Assembly (NCBI GenBank): GCA_964639335.1
Contig: CAZXCJ010000002.1
Location: 1-48,664 of the forward strand
Source: an uncultured Gammaproteobacteria bacterium
Lineage (GTDB): Bacteria > Patescibacteriota > Patescibacteriia > UBA1558 > S5-K13
Direction: 5' to 3'
DNA: 48,664 nt
The notes below the pieces were generated by a model that saw only the letters and a program-made list of their open reading frames with translations, ran no database searches and was not told where the DNA came from. Below are positions 13,026 to 35,426 of the stretch, piece by piece. Position 1 is the stretch's first letter. Each line of letters opens with the position of its first letter. The translations under genes were made by a program, and so were the position numbers.

Positions 13026-15115
<2,090 letters not shown>

Positions 15116-29430: not shown

Positions 29431-29802
29431 CTATTCATCATTTATTGTTTTAATATCATCTTCTATTTTCATACATACGCCTGCAATATTTTCCAAAATT
29501 TCATTATTTAAAAATCTAATTACTTTAATATTTAAAGAATTAAAATATTGAGTTCTCTTTTTGTCATATACTATGCTTTTTTGCTCTAAGTGTTGACTAC
29601 CGTCTAATTCAATAACTAATTTTAATTCTGGACAGTAGAAATCTACAATATATGGTCCAATACCGTGTTGTCGTCTAAATTTGTAATTAGTAAAATCTTT
29701 ACCTTTTAATATGCACCAAAGTTTAATTTCTGCTAAAGTCATGTTATGACGAAGTTTTTTACGGGTAGTTTTATATTTTTTTAAGTTATGTACTGTTCTC
29801 AT
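29431..29802 (-). CDS. DUF559 endonuclease-like protein (Vsr/restriction-endonuclease-like fold)
   Basis: LRHNMTLAEIKLWCILKG...YKFRRQHGIGPYIVDFYCPELKLVIELDGSQH is shared with the ORFs at 34131 and 41885. Confidence 0.85.
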   Translation of the reverse strand: MRTVHNLKKYKTTRKKLRHNMTLAEIKLWCILKGKDFTNYKFRRQHGIGPYIVDFYCPELKLVIELDGSQHLEQKSIVYDKKRTQYFNSLNIKVIRFLNNEILENIAGVCMKIEDDIKTINDE

Positions 29803-30158: not shown

Positions 30159-30259
30159 ACCCCGTTAGAAATTTAGGTTTTAGCGGGAATACAAAATTAA
30201 ATTAAATATAAATATGGACAAGAAAAATAACACAATCAATAAGGGCTTTCTAACGGGGT
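30159..30259. mobile_element. 101-bp MITE-like element with 13-bp perfect terminal inverted repeats ACCCCGTTAGAAA, enclosing the start codon of the DGR target gene
   Basis: Arms lie at 30159-30171 and 30247-30259. The interior shares atacaaaattaaattaa with the ligA-proximal copy. The ATG at 30214 lies inside the element, and the right arm encodes FLTGF. Confidence 0.65.
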
Positions 30260-33200
30260 TTAAAAATAAAAAATTAATTGTATTTTTAGCGGTAATTGTT
30301 GTTTTAATTATTGGTTTTGCAATTGTAAGCGCTACCGGTGGTTTTGGATTTTTTGGTGTTTCAGCTCCAAGTTCAGGTGGTGGATTAGTGGGGTATTGGA
30401 GCTTAGCGGAGTCAGACCTCTACGATACAGATATATTTCAAGACCTTAGCGGTAATGGAAACAATGGAACTTCTGCTAATACTCCTGTTTATGTATCTGA
30501 CCAAGCAGGTGTTCCTAATCAAGCAATGACTTTTAATGGAACTACTGATGCAGTTAATTGTGGAAGTGGAACTACTATTGATGACATTTTTGATTCTGGT
30601 GGAACTGCGAGTGCTTGGATAAATCCGAGTAGTGATGGGGAAGGAGGTTATGGAAAGATATTCAGCAAATGGACTGGTTTTTCTTTTGATACCAGAGAAG
30701 AATCTGGGGGAGATGTAAAAATTAGTTTTAATTATGATTTTGATGGTGCATCAGATGGTCGTTGGGCAACTGCAACAGCAATAATTCCTATAAATACTTG
30801 GACACATATAGCAGTTAATTATGATTCTGATGCAGCTGCTAATAATCCTACTTTTTACATAAATGGTGTTCCTTATACTGTTGCAAGTGGATTAACAGAA
30901 GCACAGACTCCCATAGGGACAAGAGTTTCAGATGCTGGAGCAACTTTATATTTAGGTAATAATGCTGCTACTGTTTTTACCTTTGACGGCTCTATCTCTG
31001 ACGTTATGCTATTCTCTTCAACCCTCACAGAAGACCAAGTTAGACAACTTTATTTATCTGGTAGGACTACTGCGAGAATAAAAGTGGATGCGAGGGAGTT
31101 GATTACTAATGGTGATTTCGCTACTGATAGCGATTGGGATAAAGCTAATGGAGCAACAATAGCTGGTGGTGTAGGTATATTAGATAACACAAATGCATCA
31201 TCTTTGTCTCAAACAGGCATAATAGTTGTTGGAAAAAAATATTTATTAAACTATGAAGTAGTATCAACAGATTTGTCTGGTGGAACATTTAGGATAAGTG
31301 GAATGGAAACGACAGCACTTACAAATGCTGTTGGAAAATATAATAGGGTTATTACTGCTACTGGGACATATTTACGATTTATTGCTTTTGATAATACTTC
31401 TGGAACTTTGGAATTAGATAACATTTCAATAGTAGATATAACAAACGCTATTACTCCTAAACTCCAAAAAGGTTTAATACTTGATATGCCTTTGAATAGT
31501 AGATATACAGAAGCAGGAAGTGGACTTATAACTGGTGATGATTCAACATTTGATAGTGATACTGGAAATTGGACTAAAGGAACTGGATGGACTATTGGAG
31601 GTAATGTTGCTTCTTGTAGTGGAGCTCAAAGTGCTTATAGTAATTTATTATATGCTGATATTTTAACATTAGGACATAGATATTATATAACGGCAGATAT
31701 CACAAGAACAGCTGGAACTATGTATGTTAAAGCTGGTACTAGTGGTAATTACGAAACAATAACTTCTAATCAAAGTATAGCATTTATTTCTACTGCTACT
31801 GGTAATGATGATTTATATTTTCAAGCAAATGCAGATTTTATTGGAACTGTTGATAACATAATAGTAAAAGAACTTGACGGCATAACTAAAGACCGAACCC
31901 CACAAGGAAATGATGGAACAGTAAGTGGAGCTACAATTAAATATGATGGGTTAGTAAATGCTGGTGCTGGTATTGCTTATATAAATCAAGACAAGGCTTA
32001 TGGCACTTTTGAATTTTCGGTTAATAAAGGAGCTGATGGAAATTTACATTATACTGAATTTATTGCAGATTCAAATGATAAAAGTGGAGATGGTTATTTT
32101 TTTTATGTATCTAATACTGAAGCAGTTAGATTGTATAGAAGGGATGATGGTTCAGGTACGATAATAATGTCGTCTGCAGATTCTTATGTAACAATAAACA
32201 CTGATTATCGTATTAAAATAACTCGTTCTCTCGCTGGTGTATTTACTGTTTACATCAAAGGTGGTGCTTTTGGTTGGGATGATTGGACAACTGTTGTGGC
32301 TGATAGCGGTTCTAATCCTGTTACAGATAACACTTATACAACTTCAAATTACTTAGTAGCAGACCTTGATAGTGGCGACACAATTTCTAATCTCAAAATA
32401 GATAGTAAAAGAATAAGTCTAGCAGGTGCAGTTCAAAGCACAGGGACTTGGACATTAACAGGAGACGCTTATGATTTTGATGGAACAGATGATTACATCT
32501 CAATAACTGACACAGATGATTTAAGTTTTGGAGATGGGACAGATGATAATCCTTTTTCAATAAGTAGCTGGGTTTATATAGACGATGCTACTAATTTTAA
32601 TATAATAAGCAAGGGGATTTATAATACCGACGGGGAATGGAGATTTTATTCAGGAGCAGATGATAAAGTATATTTTCAGTTTTATGATGAAAGTGTTGCT
32701 GATACTTATGTAGGCAGAATGTTTAATACCGCTTTAACTGAAGGAGAATGGGTTTCTTTAATCGCAACTTATAGCGGAGACAGCACTAGTGATAGTAATT
32801 CATTTTTTCAAGATGGAATTAAAATTTATTTAAATGGCAATAGAGCAGACAATACTGACGTTGAATCAGGAGCTTATGTGGCAATGGAAAATCTTGACCA
32901 TAATGTATGGCTGGGGAGATATAATACAGATTATGCTAATGGTCAAATAAGAGATATTAAAGTTTATAATAGAGTATTAAATAGTGGAGAAATTCAGTCA
33001 TTGTCAGAAAATTACACAGATTGTCCGTCAGATATGGTATGGGTAGATTATGCTTGGACTTGGCAATCAACTACTTGGAGTAATAGGGGCGGATTTTGTA
33101 TTGATAAATACGAAGCTTCAAATGGCGGAGGAGCTTATTATGTTGATATAAATGGCGACGGTGATATTCTTGATACAGCGGTTGATGTTTATGGCGATGG

Positions 33201-33852
33201 CACTACTTTTAATGAGACCACAGCAACCGCAAAAGCAGTTTCAGAATATAATGCTAATCCTTGGATTTCTATCAATCAAGTAAACGCCAAGGCAGCTTGT
33301 TTAGCCGCGGGCAAGCGTTTAGCCACAAATTATGAATGGCTTTTAGCTTCAAAAGGAACGCCCGATCCGCATACTTCAGTTCCTGCCACAGGCACAGAGT
33401 CCTGCCAAATATGGAATACTGGTGCTTGGCCTGATTATTCAGGGAAGAAACCAGATGGTTCTACTTGGACAGATAGTCCAGCAGGAACAAATTCTATAAA
33501 GACAGGCACTGCTGTTAATTGCGTTTCAGATGCAGGAGCTTATGATTTAATCGGCAATGTTTGGGAATGGACTGATAATGTAATCAATGGAGGGCTTCAT
33601 CCTGTTACTGGTGCTGCTTTGCCTGCTCAGAGTTATATCACTGGTTTAGATGTTTATGGTATCCCAAGTTCTACTGGTTCAGCTACCACTAATTATAATT
33701 ATGACCATTTTTGGATTAACGCCGTTGGTTATCGTGGCTTCATCCGTGGCGGCATTTGGGATCTTGGTTCGGCTGCCGGCCTCTTTGCCCTGCACCTCAA
33801 CTACGCTCCGTCCATTACGAGCTTCACCCTTGGCTTTCGCTGCGTCCGCTGA
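30214..33852 (+). CDS. DGR target protein: membrane-anchored, multi-LamG/lectin-like protein with a C-terminal FGE-sulfatase/C-type-lectin-fold variable domain
   Basis: 1212 aa with an N-terminal TM helix. LamG-like modules are present (MTFNGTTDAVNCGS...WTHIAVNYD...LYLGNN...FDGSISDVMLF; FDGTDDYISI...WVSLIATYSG...VWLGRY...IRDIKVYNRVL). The C-terminal CLec fold shows FCIDKYEAS, RLATNYEWLLASKG, YDLIGNVWEWTDN and RGG.W....GFRCVR. The last 118 nt are the VR. Confidence 0.9.
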   Translation: MDKKNNTINKGFLTGFKNKKLIVFLAVIVVLIIGFAIVSATGGFGFFGVSAPSSGGGLVGYWSLAESDLYDTDIFQDLSGNGNNGTSANTPVYVSDQAGVPNQAMTFNGTTDAVNCGSGTTIDDIFDSGGTASAWINPSSDGEGGYGKIFSKWTGFSFDTREESGGDVKISFNYDFDGASDGRWATATAIIPINTWTHIAVNYDSDAAANNPTFYINGVPYTVASGLTEAQTPIGTRVSDAGATLYLGNNAATVFTFDGSISDVMLFSSTLTEDQVRQLYLSGRTTARIKVDARELITNGDFATDSDWDKANGATIAGGVGILDNTNASSLSQTGIIVVGKKYLLNYEVVSTDLSGGTFRISGMETTALTNAVGKYNRVITATGTYLRFIAFDNTSGTLELDNISIVDITNAITPKLQKGLILDMPLNSRYTEAGSGLITGDDSTFDSDTGNWTKGTGWTIGGNVASCSGAQSAYSNLLYADILTLGHRYYITADITRTAGTMYVKAGTSGNYETITSNQSIAFISTATGNDDLYFQANADFIGTVDNIIVKELDGITKDRTPQGNDGTVSGATIKYDGLVNAGAGIAYINQDKAYGTFEFSVNKGADGNLHYTEFIADSNDKSGDGYFFYVSNTEAVRLYRRDDGSGTIIMSSADSYVTINTDYRIKITRSLAGVFTVYIKGGAFGWDDWTTVVADSGSNPVTDNTYTTSNYLVADLDSGDTISNLKIDSKRISLAGAVQSTGTWTLTGDAYDFDGTDDYISITDTDDLSFGDGTDDNPFSISSWVYIDDATNFNIISKGIYNTDGEWRFYSGADDKVYFQFYDESVADTYVGRMFNTALTEGEWVSLIATYSGDSTSDSNSFFQDGIKIYLNGNRADNTDVESGAYVAMENLDHNVWLGRYNTDYANGQIRDIKVYNRVLNSGEIQSLSENYTDCPSDMVWVDYAWTWQSTTWSNRGGFCIDKYEASNGGGAYYVDINGDGDILDTAVDVYGDGTTFNETTATAKAVSEYNANPWISINQVNAKAACLAAGKRLATNYEWLLASKGTPDPHTSVPATGTESCQIWNTGAWPDYSGKKPDGSTWTDSPAGTNSIKTGTAVNCVSDAGAYDLIGNVWEWTDNVINGGLHPVTGAALPAQSYITGLDVYGIPSSTGSATTNYNYDHFWINAVGYRGFIRGGIWDLGSAAGLFALHLNYAPSITSFTLGFRCVR
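33733..33850 (+). other. DGR variable repeat (VR)
   Basis: Ungapped 118-nt match to 35110-35227. There are 14 mismatches, all at TR adenines, and it ends at the stop codon. Confidence 0.92.
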
Positions 33853-33895
33853 ACCCCGTGAGATAGAGCTCGCAGAGCTCGCTATCTCACGGGGT
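33853..33895 (+). promoter_or_regulatory. Strong hairpin immediately 3' of VR (candidate DGR target-recognition cruciform)
   Basis: accccgtgagatag / ctatctcacggggt form a 14-bp stem, with an inner 6-bp GAGCTC stem and a 3-nt loop. It starts 1 nt after the stop and is followed by GTGAAGGGG. Confidence 0.7.
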
Positions 33896-33960
33896 GAAGG
33901 GGTTTAAGATTTTAATCTATAATCTAAAAATCTGATATTTAAATTACCTCACCCCAATTC

Positions 33961-34110
33961 GCCTCACCCCAAACCCCTCTCCATTTTTTTAAGAAAAATA
34001 GAGAGGGGCACAGGCAAAATGTCGTTATAAAATATTTAGTACATTAATTAATATTCGAGTAAGCGCCTTTCTCCTTCAGGGTCGAGGGAGAAGGGATGGG
34101 GATGAGGGAG
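33961..34110. repeat. About 150-bp two-hairpin repeat element, copy A (upstream flank of DUF559)
   Basis: gcctcaccccaaacccctctccatttttttaagaaaaatagagaggggca ... ctccttcagggtcgagggagaagggatggggatgagggag. Homologous to 34481-34640. Confidence 0.7.
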
Positions 34111-34130
34111 TCCATAGGATAAAAATATTT

Positions 34131-34481
34131 ATGACCAAAAAAGAAAAAATATATATTGCTAGAAAATTTAGAAAAAATCAAACTACAACCGAACAAATAA
34201 TTTGGGAAAAATTAAGAAATAGGCAATTAATGAATTTAAAATTCAGAAGACAATATTTAATAGAAGGATATATAGTTGATTTCTATTGTCCAAAGTTGAA
34301 ATTAACTATAGAAATAGATGGACCGATTCATTCAAGACAGGTTAAAGAAGACAAACAAAGACAAAAAGACATAGAAGAAAAAGGAATAAGATTTATTAGA
34401 TTTAAAAATAAGGATGTGCGATATAATCTTAAAGAAGTATTAAAAAAATTAAGAGTGTTTATTAAAAAAATAAGTAAATAG
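34131..34481 (+). CDS. DUF559 endonuclease-like protein inserted between the DGR VR and avd
   Basis: RKNQTTTEQIIWEKLRNRQLMNLKFRRQYLIEGYIVDFYCPKLKLTIEIDGPIHS. Confidence 0.85.
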   Translation: MTKKEKIYIARKFRKNQTTTEQIIWEKLRNRQLMNLKFRRQYLIEGYIVDFYCPKLKLTIEIDGPIHSRQVKEDKQRQKDIEEKGIRFIRFKNKDVRYNLKEVLKKLRVFIKKISK

Positions 34482-34640
34482 CCTCACCCCAAACCCCTCT
34501 CCATTTTTTTGAGAAAAATAGAGAGGGGCACATACCTAATCTGTTTATTACTGTTTGTAAATATTTATGTGTAATTAATGGATATACAAGTAAACGCCCC
34601 TCTCCTTCAGAGTTGAAGGAGAGGGGGTTGGGGGTGAGGC
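34481..34640. repeat. 160-bp two-hairpin repeat element, copy B, with about 22-bp terminal inverted repeats
   Basis: Starts gcctcaccccaaacccctctcc and ends ggagagggggttgggggtgaggc. Internal hairpins are cccctctcc-att..-agagagggg and cccctctccttca-gag-ttgaaggagagggg. Its first base is the last base of the DUF559 stop codon. Confidence 0.75.
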
Positions 34641-34681
34641 AGAGATTAACAGTGCGTGAAATTACAAAATAACATTTATGC

Positions 34682-35029
34682 GTGAAAAATATGCTCTATG
34701 ATTTAACAATTTTCCAAAAAGCTTATGATTTTCTGTTATGGATAAAGCCGACAGTTCAAAGATTTACTAAAGTTCATAAATATAGTTTGGGGATTGAATT
34801 AGAAAAAGAAACAATAGAGCTTTTAAAACAGATTGTAAGAACCAATTTTAAAAAGGATGATAGAAAAAAGGACATAGAAGAGTGTTTTGTTCATTACGAA
34901 ATAATTAAGATTTTAATTAGAGTATCCAAAGATTACCATCTTTTGAATTTAAAGCAGTACGAGTTTGCCTCTCAAAAATTAGACGAGATAGGTAAATTAC
35001 TTGGTGGTTGGTATAAAAAATTTTCATAG
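34682..35029 (+). CDS. avd: DGR accessory variability determinant (Avd-like four-helix bundle)
   Basis: About 112 aa and basic. KAYDFLLWIKPTVQRFTKVHKYSLGIELEKETIELL...LGGWYKKF fits the Avd / 23S-IVS family, and it is positioned immediately 5' of TR. The likely start is the ATG at 34691. Confidence 0.8.
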   Translation: MKNMLYDLTIFQKAYDFLLWIKPTVQRFTKVHKYSLGIELEKETIELLKQIVRTNFKKDDRKKDIEECFVHYEIIKILIRVSKDYHLLNLKQYEFASQKLDEIGKLLGGWYKKFS

Positions 35030-35050
35030 CTATCTATTTTATTTAGATAG

Positions 35051-35082
35051 ACCCCATTAGATAATTTCATATCTAACGGGGT
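35051..35082 (+). promoter_or_regulatory. Hairpin 28 nt upstream of TR, related to the post-VR hairpin
   Basis: accccattagat / atctaacggggt form an 11/12-bp stem with an 8-nt loop, followed by GTGAAGGGA. The post-VR hairpin is followed by GTGAAGGGG. Confidence 0.65.
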
Positions 35083-35109
35083 GAAGGGATTAAATCAATA
35101 AGTGGCACG

Positions 35110-35227
35110 CGTGGCTTCATCCGTGGCGGCAATTGGAATAATGGTTCGAATGCCGGCCTCTTTGCCCTGAACCTCAACAACGCTCCGTCCAATACGAACA
35201 ACAACATTGGCTTTCGCTGCGTCCGCT
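35110..35227 (+). other. DGR template repeat (TR)
   Basis: Intergenic 118 nt rich in AAY codons. In the VR frame it reads RGFIRGGNWNNGSNAGLFALNLNNAPSNTNNNIGFRCVR. Confidence 0.92.
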
Positions 35228-35426
35228 TCAGTGGTTATTATAATAAACTTGCTAGAATTTCTATTCTTTATGTAGATAGAGAGAGAGCACTATAAACCCC
35301 AGATTTTATTCCTTTTTTCTGTTTTAGAATTGCAGGGGAAAAATATTAAGGCTTTTGGGATTGGCTTGTATTAGTAATTTTTTTGAGTGAAAATTCAGGT
35401 CAATCCGCCGAGTCTTTAAAATTAAA

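What the first reader, a model, noticed from the sequence alone, without database searches (positions are those of the whole stretch)
33853..35110. Related hairpins sit just after VR and just before TR and share the tail GGGGTGAAGGG
One nucleotide after the target gene's stop there is a 14-bp stem (accccgtgagatag / ctatctcacggggt) with an inner GAGCTC stem, followed by GTGAAGGGG.

Twenty-eight nucleotides upstream of TR there is a hairpin built from the same arm family (accccattagat / atctaacggggt), followed by GTGAAGGGA.

A hairpin or cruciform 3' of VR is known from the Bordetella-phage DGR to promote target recognition. A sequence-related hairpin on the TR side, upstream rather than downstream, is not part of the textbook layout. 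It may be structural mimicry between donor RNA and target DNA, or it may simply be two copies of the ACCCCGTTAGA element family (see the separate finding).
Basis: partly seen in the sequence, partly recalled or inferred. Interest (0 to 1): 0.68.

Follow-up and report, generated by a model that had tools for sequence, protein, structure and literature searches.

The report
Mobile palindromes inserted into a DGR
The two look-alike hairpins beside the variable and template repeats are real, but they are copies of a small mobile palindromic repeat found across many bacterial phyla, not conserved working parts of the diversity-generating retroelement.

Summary
Both hairpins are present as described: 33853-33895 directly after the target gene's stop, and 35051-35082, 27 nt before TR. 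Both fold far better than shuffled sequence.

They are short members of a MITE-like family. The family has terminal inverted repeats ACCCCGTTAGA/TCTAACGGGGT and a 4-nt TNNA target-site duplication. At least 119 loci from Patescibacteria, Omnitrophota, Planctomycetota, Deltaproteobacteria and other groups carry it, and none of those loci has a DGR nearby.

The VR-side hairpin is a clean 43-nt presence/absence polymorphism within this species. It is absent from the syntenic sister-species DGR and from most of 21 related DGRs, whose VRs still vary at TR adenines.

The TR-side hairpin is also an insertion. It sits between an older hairpin (35030-35050) and a conserved box.

The shared tail is not part of the hairpins. 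It is the element end, then TGAA, then local flank. On the TR side GAAGGGATTAAATC is the upstream strand of a covarying duplex with the spacer, the counterpart of the BPP-1 "cPRT Stop" duplex.

The donor/target mimicry idea is not supported. The "two copies of a repeat family" alternative is.

The parts
33733..33850 (+). VR, the 3' end of the DGR target gene 30214-33852
   Evidence: 118-nt repeat with TR. All 14 mismatches are at TR adenines.
33853..33895 (.). VR-side hairpin: a 43-nt perfect-armed palindrome, a short member of the ACCCCGTTAGA/TCTAACGGGGT MITE-like family. TGAA is duplicated at 33850-33853 and 33895-33898.
   Evidence: Fold z -6.2. Absent from same-species contigs L006, L007 and L026, which read cgcTGA|GAAGGGG, and from sister species L011-L018, which read cgcTGAAGGGG. 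TGAA..TGAA fits the family's target-site duplication.
33896..33908 (+). VR-side 'tail' GAAGGGGTTTAAG: pre-existing flank of VR, not part of the hairpin
   Evidence: The same sequence directly follows the stop codon in loci without a hairpin: L006, L026, L011, L045 and L079.
33914..33936 (+). AATCTA / AATCTA / AATCTGA short direct repeats downstream of VR
   Evidence: ATCT occurs 39 times against 4.2 expected, and TCTG 32 times against 3.3 expected, in the 50 nt after VR in 21 related loci. The period is 7-8 or 14 nt.
35030..35050 (+). Older hairpin CTATCTA-TTTTATT-TAGATAG directly after the avd stop
   Evidence: Predicted. The homologous hairpin GCTATCC-ATTTTT-AGGATAG directly abuts the box in L038, L043, L045 and L079.
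35051..35082 (.). TR-side hairpin: a 32-nt palindrome of the same family, inserted between the older hairpin and the box
   Evidence: Fixed in all contigs of this species. Absent in the sister species and in all other relatives. The 3' arm TATCTAACGGGGT matches the arms of most other copies. Flanks TAGA and TGAA do not match, so the duplication is degenerate here.
35083..35096 (+). TR-side 'tail' GAAGGGATTAAATC: the upstream strand of the long-range duplex that closes TR (cPRT-Stop-like)
   Evidence: Conserved box in relatives. It pairs with 35302-35316 in the MFE and centroid folds. Covariation is shown. The BPP-1 precedent is bioRxiv 10.1101/2023.10.23.563531.
35110..35227 (+). TR
35302..35316 (+). 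Spacer strand GATTTTATTCCTTTT, which pairs with the box. It is followed by a stem-loop and an A-rich run.
35427..36725 (+). DGR reverse transcriptase. It carries an in-frame family copy (arms at 35989-35999 and 36215-36225) and a further ~57-aa in-frame insert (~36009-36179) containing GC-rich hairpins.
30159..30259 (.). 101-nt long-form family copy spanning the start of the DGR target gene. It supplies the ATG at 30214 and the first 15 codons.
   Evidence: Conserved in the sister species with a TTTA duplication.
13026..13128 (.). 103-nt long-form family copy, with TGAA duplication, in the intergenic space upstream of NAD-dependent DNA ligase. It has no connection to the DGR.

Best explanation
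Both hairpins are short, internally reduced copies of a mobile palindromic repeat, a MITE-like element. Its terminal inverted repeats are ACCCCGTTAGA...TCTAACGGGGT. It inserts at TNNA sites and duplicates those 4 nt.

One copy landed at the TGAA that includes the target gene's stop codon, directly 3' of VR. The other landed at the 5' edge of the box that lies upstream of TR.

The hairpins look related because they carry the same terminal repeats. The shared tail arises differently. Each element end (GGGG) is followed by TGAA and then by local flanks that both begin GGG.
- On the VR side the TGAA is the duplicated target site.
- On the TR side GAAGGGATTAAATC is ancestral DGR RNA sequence. It is the upstream strand of a duplex with the spacer that encloses TR and, by analogy with BPP-1, stops and organises cDNA synthesis.

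What is shown:
- membership of the family;
- the insertion/empty-site relationship;
- the within-species polymorphism;
- absence of the hairpins in orthologues;
- covariation of the box:spacer duplex.

What is inferred:
- that the insertions are neutral or merely tolerated by the DGR;
- the transposition mechanism itself, since no transposase was identified.
For: Family.
They come from Patescibacteria, Omnitrophota, Planctomycetota, Deltaproteobacteria and other groups.
- There are 125 distinct copies of 77-136 nt with inverted repeats of 11-18 bp. In 83 of 125 an identical TNNA 4-mer straddles both ends. Permuted controls gave a mean of 16.7 and a maximum of 29.
- Short forms of 28-55 nt with duplications also occur in other phyla.
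- None of the 119 loci encodes a DGR RT or Avd nearby.
- In the window, one copy lies upstream of ligA.

VR side.
- Sister-species empty site: cgcTGAAgggg.
- Window: cgcTGAA[CCCC..GGGG]TGAAgggg.
- Same-species contigs L006, L007 and L026: cgcTGA-GAAgggg, which is the exact loss of A[CCCC..GGGG]T.
- L026 is nearly identical to the window on either side: 0 of 165 differences upstream of VR and 1 of 1334 from avd onward. The spacer between VR and DUF559 differs by the hairpin and two further indels. L026 has no hairpin, and its VR differs from the window's at 14 of the last 100 positions. Each of the two VRs differs from TR only at TR adenines.
- The hairpin-less sister species shows 4 different VRs among 8 contigs.
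- Only 2 of about 21 non-redundant relatives have a strong GC-rich hairpin next to VR.

TR side.
- All relatives lack the ACCCC hairpin.
- L038, L043, L045 and L079 have the homologue of the older hairpin directly abutting the box.

Box:spacer duplex.
- 88% of cells paired, against 45-67% when the partner is slid, with 4 pairs changed on both sides, in the first group of 10 loci, which has GGGATTAAATC-type boxes.
- 98% paired with 5 such pairs in the second group, five distinct sequences from 8 loci, which has GGGTTGGATTG-type boxes; only 1 of 500 shuffles reached this.
- Present in both the MFE and centroid folds.
- A matching element is described for BPP-1 and 207 other DGRs.
Against: - Five of about six family copies in the 48.7-kb window lie within the 6.6-kb DGR cassette. 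Under uniform placement this has P of roughly 2e-4. Several related DGRs also carry copies inside the cassette. This local enrichment is not explained. Long non-coding spacers in an otherwise compact genome are a partial explanation.
- Both insertions sit immediately 5' of GAAGGG(G/A)TT. The two flanks are 16/19 identical in this species (z 4.6). Two independent insertions at such similar sites is more than a bare TNNA preference predicts.
- A second lineage (L039) independently carries a GC-rich palindrome right after its VR stop. Selection for hairpins at that position therefore cannot be excluded.
- No autonomous element or transposase was found.
- The TR-side copy lacks a clean duplication (TAGA against TGAA).
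Confidence: 0.8

Rival explanations
1. Exaptation. The hairpins arrived as mobile palindromes but now work for the DGR. The VR-side copy would act as a facultative cruciform that stimulates cDNA integration, as in BPP-1. The TR-side copy would serve as the hairpin that stacks next to the stop duplex. Gain or loss of the VR-side copy would then modulate diversification rate between strains.
For: - A hairpin whose 3' end lies within 2 nt of the box is found in 13 of 20 related loci, against 8.8% of control windows (per-locus folds). The TR-side palindrome restores that adjacency.
- The VR-side copy occupies the position of the BPP-1 hairpin.
- An unrelated GC palindrome sits at the same place in L039 but not in its relatives L041 and L042.
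- Family copies are locally enriched in the DGR cassette.
Against: - Hairpin-less strains and the hairpin-less sister species show VR variants at TR adenines.
- The VR hairpin has 14+6 bp of stem, a 3-nt GCA loop and no spacer. In BPP-1, longer stems, non-GRNA loops and deletion of the spacer all reduce function.
- All hairpin-bearing contigs are clonal, with 0-3 differences per ~3 kb (0 in all but L025), and carry one VR, so there is no evidence of activity with the hairpin in place.
- The older hairpin 35030-35050 is still present, so the TR-side copy is not needed to supply a hairpin.
Confidence: 0.13
2. A conserved pair of related hairpins, one on target DNA 3' of VR and one on donor RNA 5' of TR, plus the common tail, form a recognition system that matches donor to target.
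For: - Related arms and an identical 11-mer GGGGTGAAGGG occur at both sites.
- The flanks after the two hairpins are 16/19 identical in this species.
Against: - Neither hairpin is present in the syntenic sister species.
- The VR-side one is polymorphic within the species.
- The flank similarity is absent in 19 other related DGRs: L052 scores high but on a different, gapped match, and the rest are at background.
- The arms belong to a repeat family found in many phyla without DGRs.
- The TR-side tail already has a pairing partner in the spacer.
Confidence: 0.04
3. The hairpins are transcript-level elements unrelated to the DGR mechanism. The VR-side one would be a terminator or 3' stabiliser of the target mRNA. 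The TR-side one would be a processing or stability signal between avd and TR.
For: Stable RNA hairpins lie at a gene's 3' end and in an intergenic spacer. REP-like palindromes in other bacteria are known, from general knowledge, to stabilise upstream mRNA.
Against: Neither is followed by a T-run, and neither is called terminator-like. Both are absent in close relatives with the same gene order. This is a possible side effect of the insertions rather than a separate origin.
Confidence: 0.03

Closest known systems
Bacterial MITEs and palindromic repeats, such as Neisseria Correia elements and Rickettsia palindromic elements (RPEs). This comparison rests on general knowledge.
   Same: - Short (28-136 nt) non-coding elements with conserved terminal inverted repeats and target-site duplications.
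- Many copies per genome.
- Found in intergenic spacers and, like RPEs, in frame inside protein-coding genes. Here that means the DGR RT, the start of the DGR target gene, and pilin-like genes elsewhere.
- Presence/absence polymorphism between strains.
   Different: - The 11-nt terminal repeat, which the scan required to be exact at both ends, turned up in very distant phyla, whereas most described MITE families are lineage-specific.
- The duplication is TNNA (4 nt).
- No partner transposase was identified.
- No paper in the searched library contains the terminal sequence.
BPP-1-type hairpin/cruciform 3' of VR (Guo et al. 2011, PMC3240598)
   Same: An inverted repeat immediately downstream of VR and of the stop codon of a DGR target gene, able to form a hairpin on either DNA strand.
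   Different: - The stem is 14+6 bp instead of 7-10 bp.
- The loop is GCA (3 nt) instead of 4-nt GRNA.
- There is no spacer.
- It is not conserved in orthologous or related DGRs, and it is polymorphic within the species.
cPRT Stop (avd:Sp duplex) of the BPP-1 DGR RNA (Handa et al., bioRxiv 10.1101/2023.10.23.563531)
   Same: - About 13-14 bp of pairing between a segment 13 nt upstream of TR (35083-35096) and a spacer segment about 75 nt downstream of TR (35302-35316).
- The spacer strand is followed by a stem-loop and an A-rich run.
- The pairing covaries among relatives.
   Different: This concerns only the 'tail' of the TR-side hairpin, not the hairpin. In this clade a hairpin usually abuts the upstream strand, which was not reported for BPP-1. 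Function is inferred, not tested.

Membership tests
BPP-1-type VR-proximal hairpin/cruciform | GC-rich stem of 7-10 bp | tested here: not met
   The outer stem is 14 bp (8 of 14 G/C) and the inner stem is 6 bp.
BPP-1-type VR-proximal hairpin/cruciform | 4-nt loop with sense-strand consensus GRNA | tested here: not met
   The loop is GCA, 3 nt.
BPP-1-type VR-proximal hairpin/cruciform | Located 4-34 bp downstream of VR | tested here: not met
   It starts directly after the stop codon, 2 nt after the VR/TR homology ends. In BPP-1, deleting the spacer reduced function.
BPP-1-type VR-proximal hairpin/cruciform | Conserved among related DGR targets | tested here: not met
   Absent in same-species strains, in the sister species, and in about 19 of 21 related loci.
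BPP-1-type VR-proximal hairpin/cruciform | Required for efficient retrohoming | not testable with these tools
   This needs a homing assay. Indirectly, hairpin-less relatives show A-site VR variants.
MITE-like dispersed palindromic repeat | Conserved terminal inverted repeats shared by many copies with unrelated interiors | tested here: met
   125 distinct copies share arms that match for 11-18 nt, with diverse interiors. The VR and TR copies share these arms with 1 mismatch each.
MITE-like dispersed palindromic repeat | Target-site duplication | tested here: met
   83 of 125 copies have an identical TNNA; permutation maximum 29. The VR copy has TGAA/TGAA. The TR copy has TAGA/TGAA, so the feature is not met for that copy.
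MITE-like dispersed palindromic repeat | Empty sites in related genomes | tested here: met
   VR side: the sister species has TGAAGGGG and same-species contigs have TGA-GAAGGGG. TR side: L038, L043, L045 and L079 have the older hairpin abutting the box.
MITE-like dispersed palindromic repeat | Dispersed distribution, not tied to one gene system | tested here: met
   At least 119 loci in many phyla with 0 DGR RT or Avd nearby. One copy lies upstream of ligA in the window. Caveat: there is local enrichment inside this DGR.
MITE-like dispersed palindromic repeat | Cognate transposase with the same terminal repeats | tested here: inconclusive
   Pairs of ends 0.7-3.5 kb apart enclose housekeeping or pilin-like genes, not transposases. 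Only the fetched loci were searched.
cPRT-Stop-like duplex of DGR RNA (applies to the TR-side tail) | Complementarity between sequence just upstream of TR and the spacer downstream of TR | tested here: met
   Covariation is shown. Caveat: the paired segments were picked by hand.
cPRT-Stop-like duplex of DGR RNA (applies to the TR-side tail) | Stem-loop and adenosines following the spacer strand | tested here: inconclusive
   The MFE fold shows a stem-loop right after 35316, followed by GGGGAAAAAUAUUAAG. No tertiary structure test is possible.
cPRT-Stop-like duplex of DGR RNA (applies to the TR-side tail) | cDNA synthesis terminates just before the duplex | not testable with these tools
   This needs cDNA 3'-end mapping.

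The most novel reading that the evidence does not exclude
The mobile palindrome acts as a switch or donor of DGR structure. Under this reading, insertion next to VR supplies or removes a cruciform and shifts the conserved ATCT/TCTG repeat array 43 nt away from VR, so its gain or loss turns diversification up or down between strains. The copy upstream of TR has taken over the role of the hairpin that abuts the stop duplex. More broadly, a cross-phylum MITE with exact 11-nt ends would repeatedly donate gene 5' ends (start codons, prepilin LTG|FT cleavage sites) and in-frame loops to proteins, including the DGR RT.
Probability: 0.1. Interest if true: 0.7.

Novelty: new member of a known kind. Interest (0 to 1): 0.35.

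Why it matters
The result removes a tempting but wrong inference. In this DGR, a hairpin next to VR and a similar one next to TR are recent passengers, not a donor/target recognition pair.

It also sharpens what is conserved in this Patescibacteria DGR clade:
- an upstream:spacer duplex enclosing TR;
- a hairpin abutting that duplex;
- an ATCT/TCTG short-repeat array 3' of VR where BPP-1 has its hairpin.

Separately, it documents a repeat family with the same terminal repeats in very distant phyla. That family inserts in frame into genes, including a reverse transcriptase, and supplies N-termini to surface proteins. This may be worth a study of its own.

Tried and rejected
- Rfam at gathering threshold found only tRNA-Asp and tmRNA in the window, and nothing at the hairpins.
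- Terminator and promoter scans found no call at either hairpin. The only promoter-like site near the cassette is upstream of avd.
- I considered that the VR flank and the TR-upstream box are generally similar, so that the spacer strand could pair with target DNA. The 16/19 match holds only in this species and weakly in the sister. It is absent in 19 other loci, so I rejected it as a clade feature.
- I considered integron attC sites, because TCTAAC/GTTAGA resemble the R''/R' boxes. I rejected this because the order of the boxes is inverted relative to attC, and the copies show TNNA duplications.
- I considered invertible promoters flanked by inverted repeats. The duplications and the empty sites make this unlikely.
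- I looked for an autonomous element between distant ends with matching duplications. Only housekeeping or pilin-like genes lie between them.
- I considered the 1230-nt segment from 33853 to 35082 (left end of the VR copy to right end of the TR copy, TGAA/TGAA) as a composite element carrying DUF559 and avd. I rejected this because the sister species has avd between VR and TR without these ends.
- RNAduplex z-scores against shuffles were uninformative for the upstream:spacer pairing, because long search spaces always find some duplex. I used position-slid and covariation controls instead.
- Literature searches for the terminal sequence and for MITEs in these phyla found nothing relevant.
Full report
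**Context.** The window is a 32% G+C bacterial chromosome segment carrying tmRNA and tRNA-Asp. The closest named homologues of its proteins are from Patescibacteria MAGs. It carries a complete DGR:
- a 1212-aa target with Laminin_G_3 and FGE-sulfatase/C-type-lectin-like domains (30214-33852);
- VR at 33733-33850;
- a DUF559 gene (34131-34481);
- bAvd (34682-35029);
- TR at 35110-35227;
- an RT (35427-36725).

All 14 VR/TR differences are at TR adenines.

**Observation.** Both hairpins are there. The VR-side one is a 43-nt palindrome at 33853-33895. It has 14-bp outer arms, an inner GAGCTC/GAGCTC stem and a GCA loop, and it begins directly after the stop codon. The TR-side one is a 32-nt palindrome at 35051-35082, 12 bp with one A.C mismatch, ending 27 nt before TR. 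Both fold much better than shuffles as RNA or DNA, with z from -4.2 to -6.7. The 11-mer GGGGTGAAGGG occurs exactly only at these two sites. A 25-nt direct repeat covers arm plus tail.

**The VR-side hairpin is an insertion and is polymorphic.** The same RT protein (100% identical) is found on 16 contigs from several metagenomes. More contigs were fetched through the DUF559 gene. Eight contigs, including the window, carry the hairpin. Three (L006, L007, L026) do not. The junctions read as follows:
- window: cgcTGA-ACCCC...GGGGT-GAAGGGGTTTA;
- L006, L007, L026: cgcTGA-GAAGGGGTTTA;
- syntenic sister species (RT 73% identical, same flanking genes): cgcTGAAGGGGTTTA, with avd starting 66 nt after the stop and no GC-rich hairpin in between.

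The sister sequence is a simple empty site for a 4-nt TGAA duplication. The three same-species contigs look like exact loss of the palindrome A[CCCC..GGGG]T.

So the "tail" after the hairpin is the old flank of VR. The hairpin-bearing contigs are clonal, with 0 differences in about 3 kb in all but L025 (3 of 1000), so their identical VR says nothing about activity. L026 is nearly identical on either side (0 of 165 differences upstream of VR, 1 of 1334 from avd onward). The VR-to-DUF559 spacer between these differs from the window's by the hairpin and two further indels. L026 lacks the hairpin, and its VR differs from the window's at 14 of the last 100 positions. Each of the two VRs differs from TR only at TR adenines. 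The sister species shows four VR versions among eight contigs.

**Wider comparison.** I fetched 80 related DGR loci from metagenomes. TR/VR pairs were found in about 35 of them. Among about 21 non-redundant ones, only the window's haplotype and L039 have a strong GC-rich hairpin right after VR. L039's hairpin is an unrelated 21-nt palindrome that is missing in its relatives L041 and L042.

What is conserved after VR is an array of short repeats. ATCT occurs 39 times against 4.2 expected, and TCTG 32 times against 3.3 expected. The spacing is 7-8 or 14 nt, and ATCT is present in 19 of 21 loci. In the window the palindrome sits between VR and this array.

**The TR side.** The ACCCC hairpin is present in every contig of this species but in no other locus. 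Upstream of TR, relatives share a box, (A)GAAGGGATTAA(A/G)TC or a variant of it. This box pairs with a spacer segment about 55-95 nt after TR.
- In the first group of loci, with GGGATTAAATC-type boxes (10 loci), 88% of cells pair, against 45-67% when the partner is slid. Four pairs change on both sides, for example U-A to C-G in L102.
- In the second group, with GGGTTGGATTG-type boxes (five distinct sequences from 8 loci), 98% pair with five compensatory pairs. Only 1 of 500 shuffles reached this.
- I chose the segments by eye, which favours the structure. The slid controls and the independent MFE and centroid folds of 35025-35345 agree with it.

This corresponds to the avd:Sp "cPRT Stop" duplex seen by cryo-EM in the BPP-1 RNP and predicted in 207 DGRs (bioRxiv 10.1101/2023.10.23.563531). 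The correspondence includes a stem-loop and an A-run after the spacer strand. The TR-side "tail" GAAGGGATTAAATC (35083-35096) is therefore that duplex's upstream strand.

A hairpin whose 3' end lies within 2 nt of the box is found in 13 of 20 loci, against 8.8% of control windows (per-locus folds). Its sequence differs between loci. In L038, L043, L045 and L079 this hairpin is GCTATCC-ATTTTT-AGGATAG, directly abutting the box. The window has its homologue CTATCTA-TTTTATT-TAGATAG at 35030-35050, and the ACCCC palindrome is wedged between it and the box. The TR-side hairpin is thus also an insertion, into a slot where a hairpin is tolerated or wanted.

**The repeat family.** The window has further copies:
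- a 103-nt copy upstream of ligA (13026-13128);
- a 101-nt copy spanning the start of the DGR target gene (30159-30259), conserved in the sister species;
- arms inside the RT gene.

These come from Patescibacteria, Omnitrophota, Planctomycetota, Deltaproteobacteria and other groups. The 125 distinct copies are 77-136 nt, with diverse interiors and arms that match for 11-18 nt. In 83 of them an identical TNNA 4-mer straddles the two ends; permutation gave a mean of 16.7 and a maximum of 29.

Short forms of 28-55 nt with such duplications also exist. None of the 119 loci (795 kb) encodes a DGR RT or Avd. The family is therefore a dispersed MITE-like element. The VR-side copy, with TGAA/TGAA, is a typical short member. 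The TR-side copy has degenerate flanks. I found no transposase between distant ends and no paper containing the terminal sequence.

**Assessment.** The BPP-1-type hairpin is defined by a 7-10-bp GC stem, a 4-nt GRNA loop, a position 4-34 bp from VR, and conservation among targets (PMC3240598). The window's hairpin fails each feature that could be tested.

Three points remain open:
- why copies cluster in this DGR (5 of about 6 in 6.6 of 48.7 kb);
- why both insertions sit 5' of nearly identical flanks (16/19);
- whether palindromes next to VR are occasionally selected, as L039 hints.

These keep a modest probability for exaptation.

Noticed in passing
window 33914-33936; 50 nt after VR in L006, L011, L045, L047, L052-L058, L068, L072-L074, L077, L080, L088: Immediately 3' of VR, nearly all related DGRs have 2-6 short direct repeats containing ATCT or TCTG, spaced 7-8 or 14 nt apart. 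ATCT occurs 39 times against 4.2 expected and TCTG 32 times against 3.3 expected, and ATCT is present in 19 of 21 loci. This, rather than a hairpin, is the conserved feature next to VR in this clade. Its function is unknown.
   Followed up: partly
window 35030-35050 and the equivalent position in about 13-16 of 20 related loci: A hairpin of variable sequence ends within 0-2 nt of the upstream strand of the upstream:spacer duplex of the DGR RNA: 13 of 20 loci against 8.8% of control windows. The BPP-1 work I read did not describe this.
   Followed up: partly
window 35989-36225 (RT gene), especially ~36009-36179: The RT carries an in-frame family copy, with arms encoding DPIRDSY...SLTGF, that is shared with the sister species. 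It also carries a further ~57-aa in-frame insert, absent from the sister RT, that contains GC-rich hairpins (ACCCCGTCAGCTTGCTGCGGGGT and CCAGAGCTTGCTCTGG). The ORF stays intact on 16 contigs. L043 has another in-frame family hairpin elsewhere in its RT.
   Followed up: partly
window 30159-30259; L124 3025-3106 and 6120-6201; L175; L181: Long-form copies overlap gene starts. In the window the element supplies the ATG and the first 15 codons (MDKKNNTINKGFLTG) of the DGR target. In other phyla the element end plus a TTTA duplication encodes LTG|FT, the prepilin cleavage/methylation site of pilin-like genes.
   Followed up: partly
window 33947-34640; also 29431-29802(-) and 41885-42238(-); L011 7156-7503: There are three DUF559 (Vsr-like endonuclease) genes in 48 kb. 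The one in the DGR is bracketed by 73-nt and 59-nt GC-rich direct repeats with internal hairpins (CCTCACCCCAAACCCCTCTCC...). In the sister species a DUF559 gene lies on the other side of avd, between avd and TR. This suggests a mobile DUF559 cassette.
   Followed up: no
window 33896-33914 compared with 35083-35101 (hairpin-less form in L006): The VR 3' flank GAAGGGGTTTAATCTATAA and the TR 5' flank GAAGGGATTAAATCAATAA are 16/19 identical (z 4.6). The match is weak in the sister species and absent in 19 other related DGRs. It may be a local duplication, a shared insertion target, or chance.
   Followed up: yes
L006/L007 compared with the window, target gene upstream of VR: Hairpin-less strains L006 and L007 differ by about 6.5% in the 1 kb upstream of VR but by only 0-4 of 2000 positions from avd through RT. 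L026 matches the window upstream of VR and from avd onward but has the L006-type spacer between VR and DUF559. The cassette is a recombination mosaic.
   Followed up: partly
window 38900-39060: A cluster of GC-rich hairpins lies just upstream of tRNA-Asp. They include GGCCCCGCATGCGCGGGG, and CCCCGTCATAAAGACGGGG and CCCCGTTTAACGGGG, each followed by CAAGCAG. There is no Rfam match at gathering threshold.
   Followed up: no
L057, L060, L101: In three related loci the repeat next to the RT differs from its partner at T rather than A on the RT strand. This implies a TR in the opposite orientation to the RT gene, with the VR-like copy downstream of the RT.
   Followed up: no
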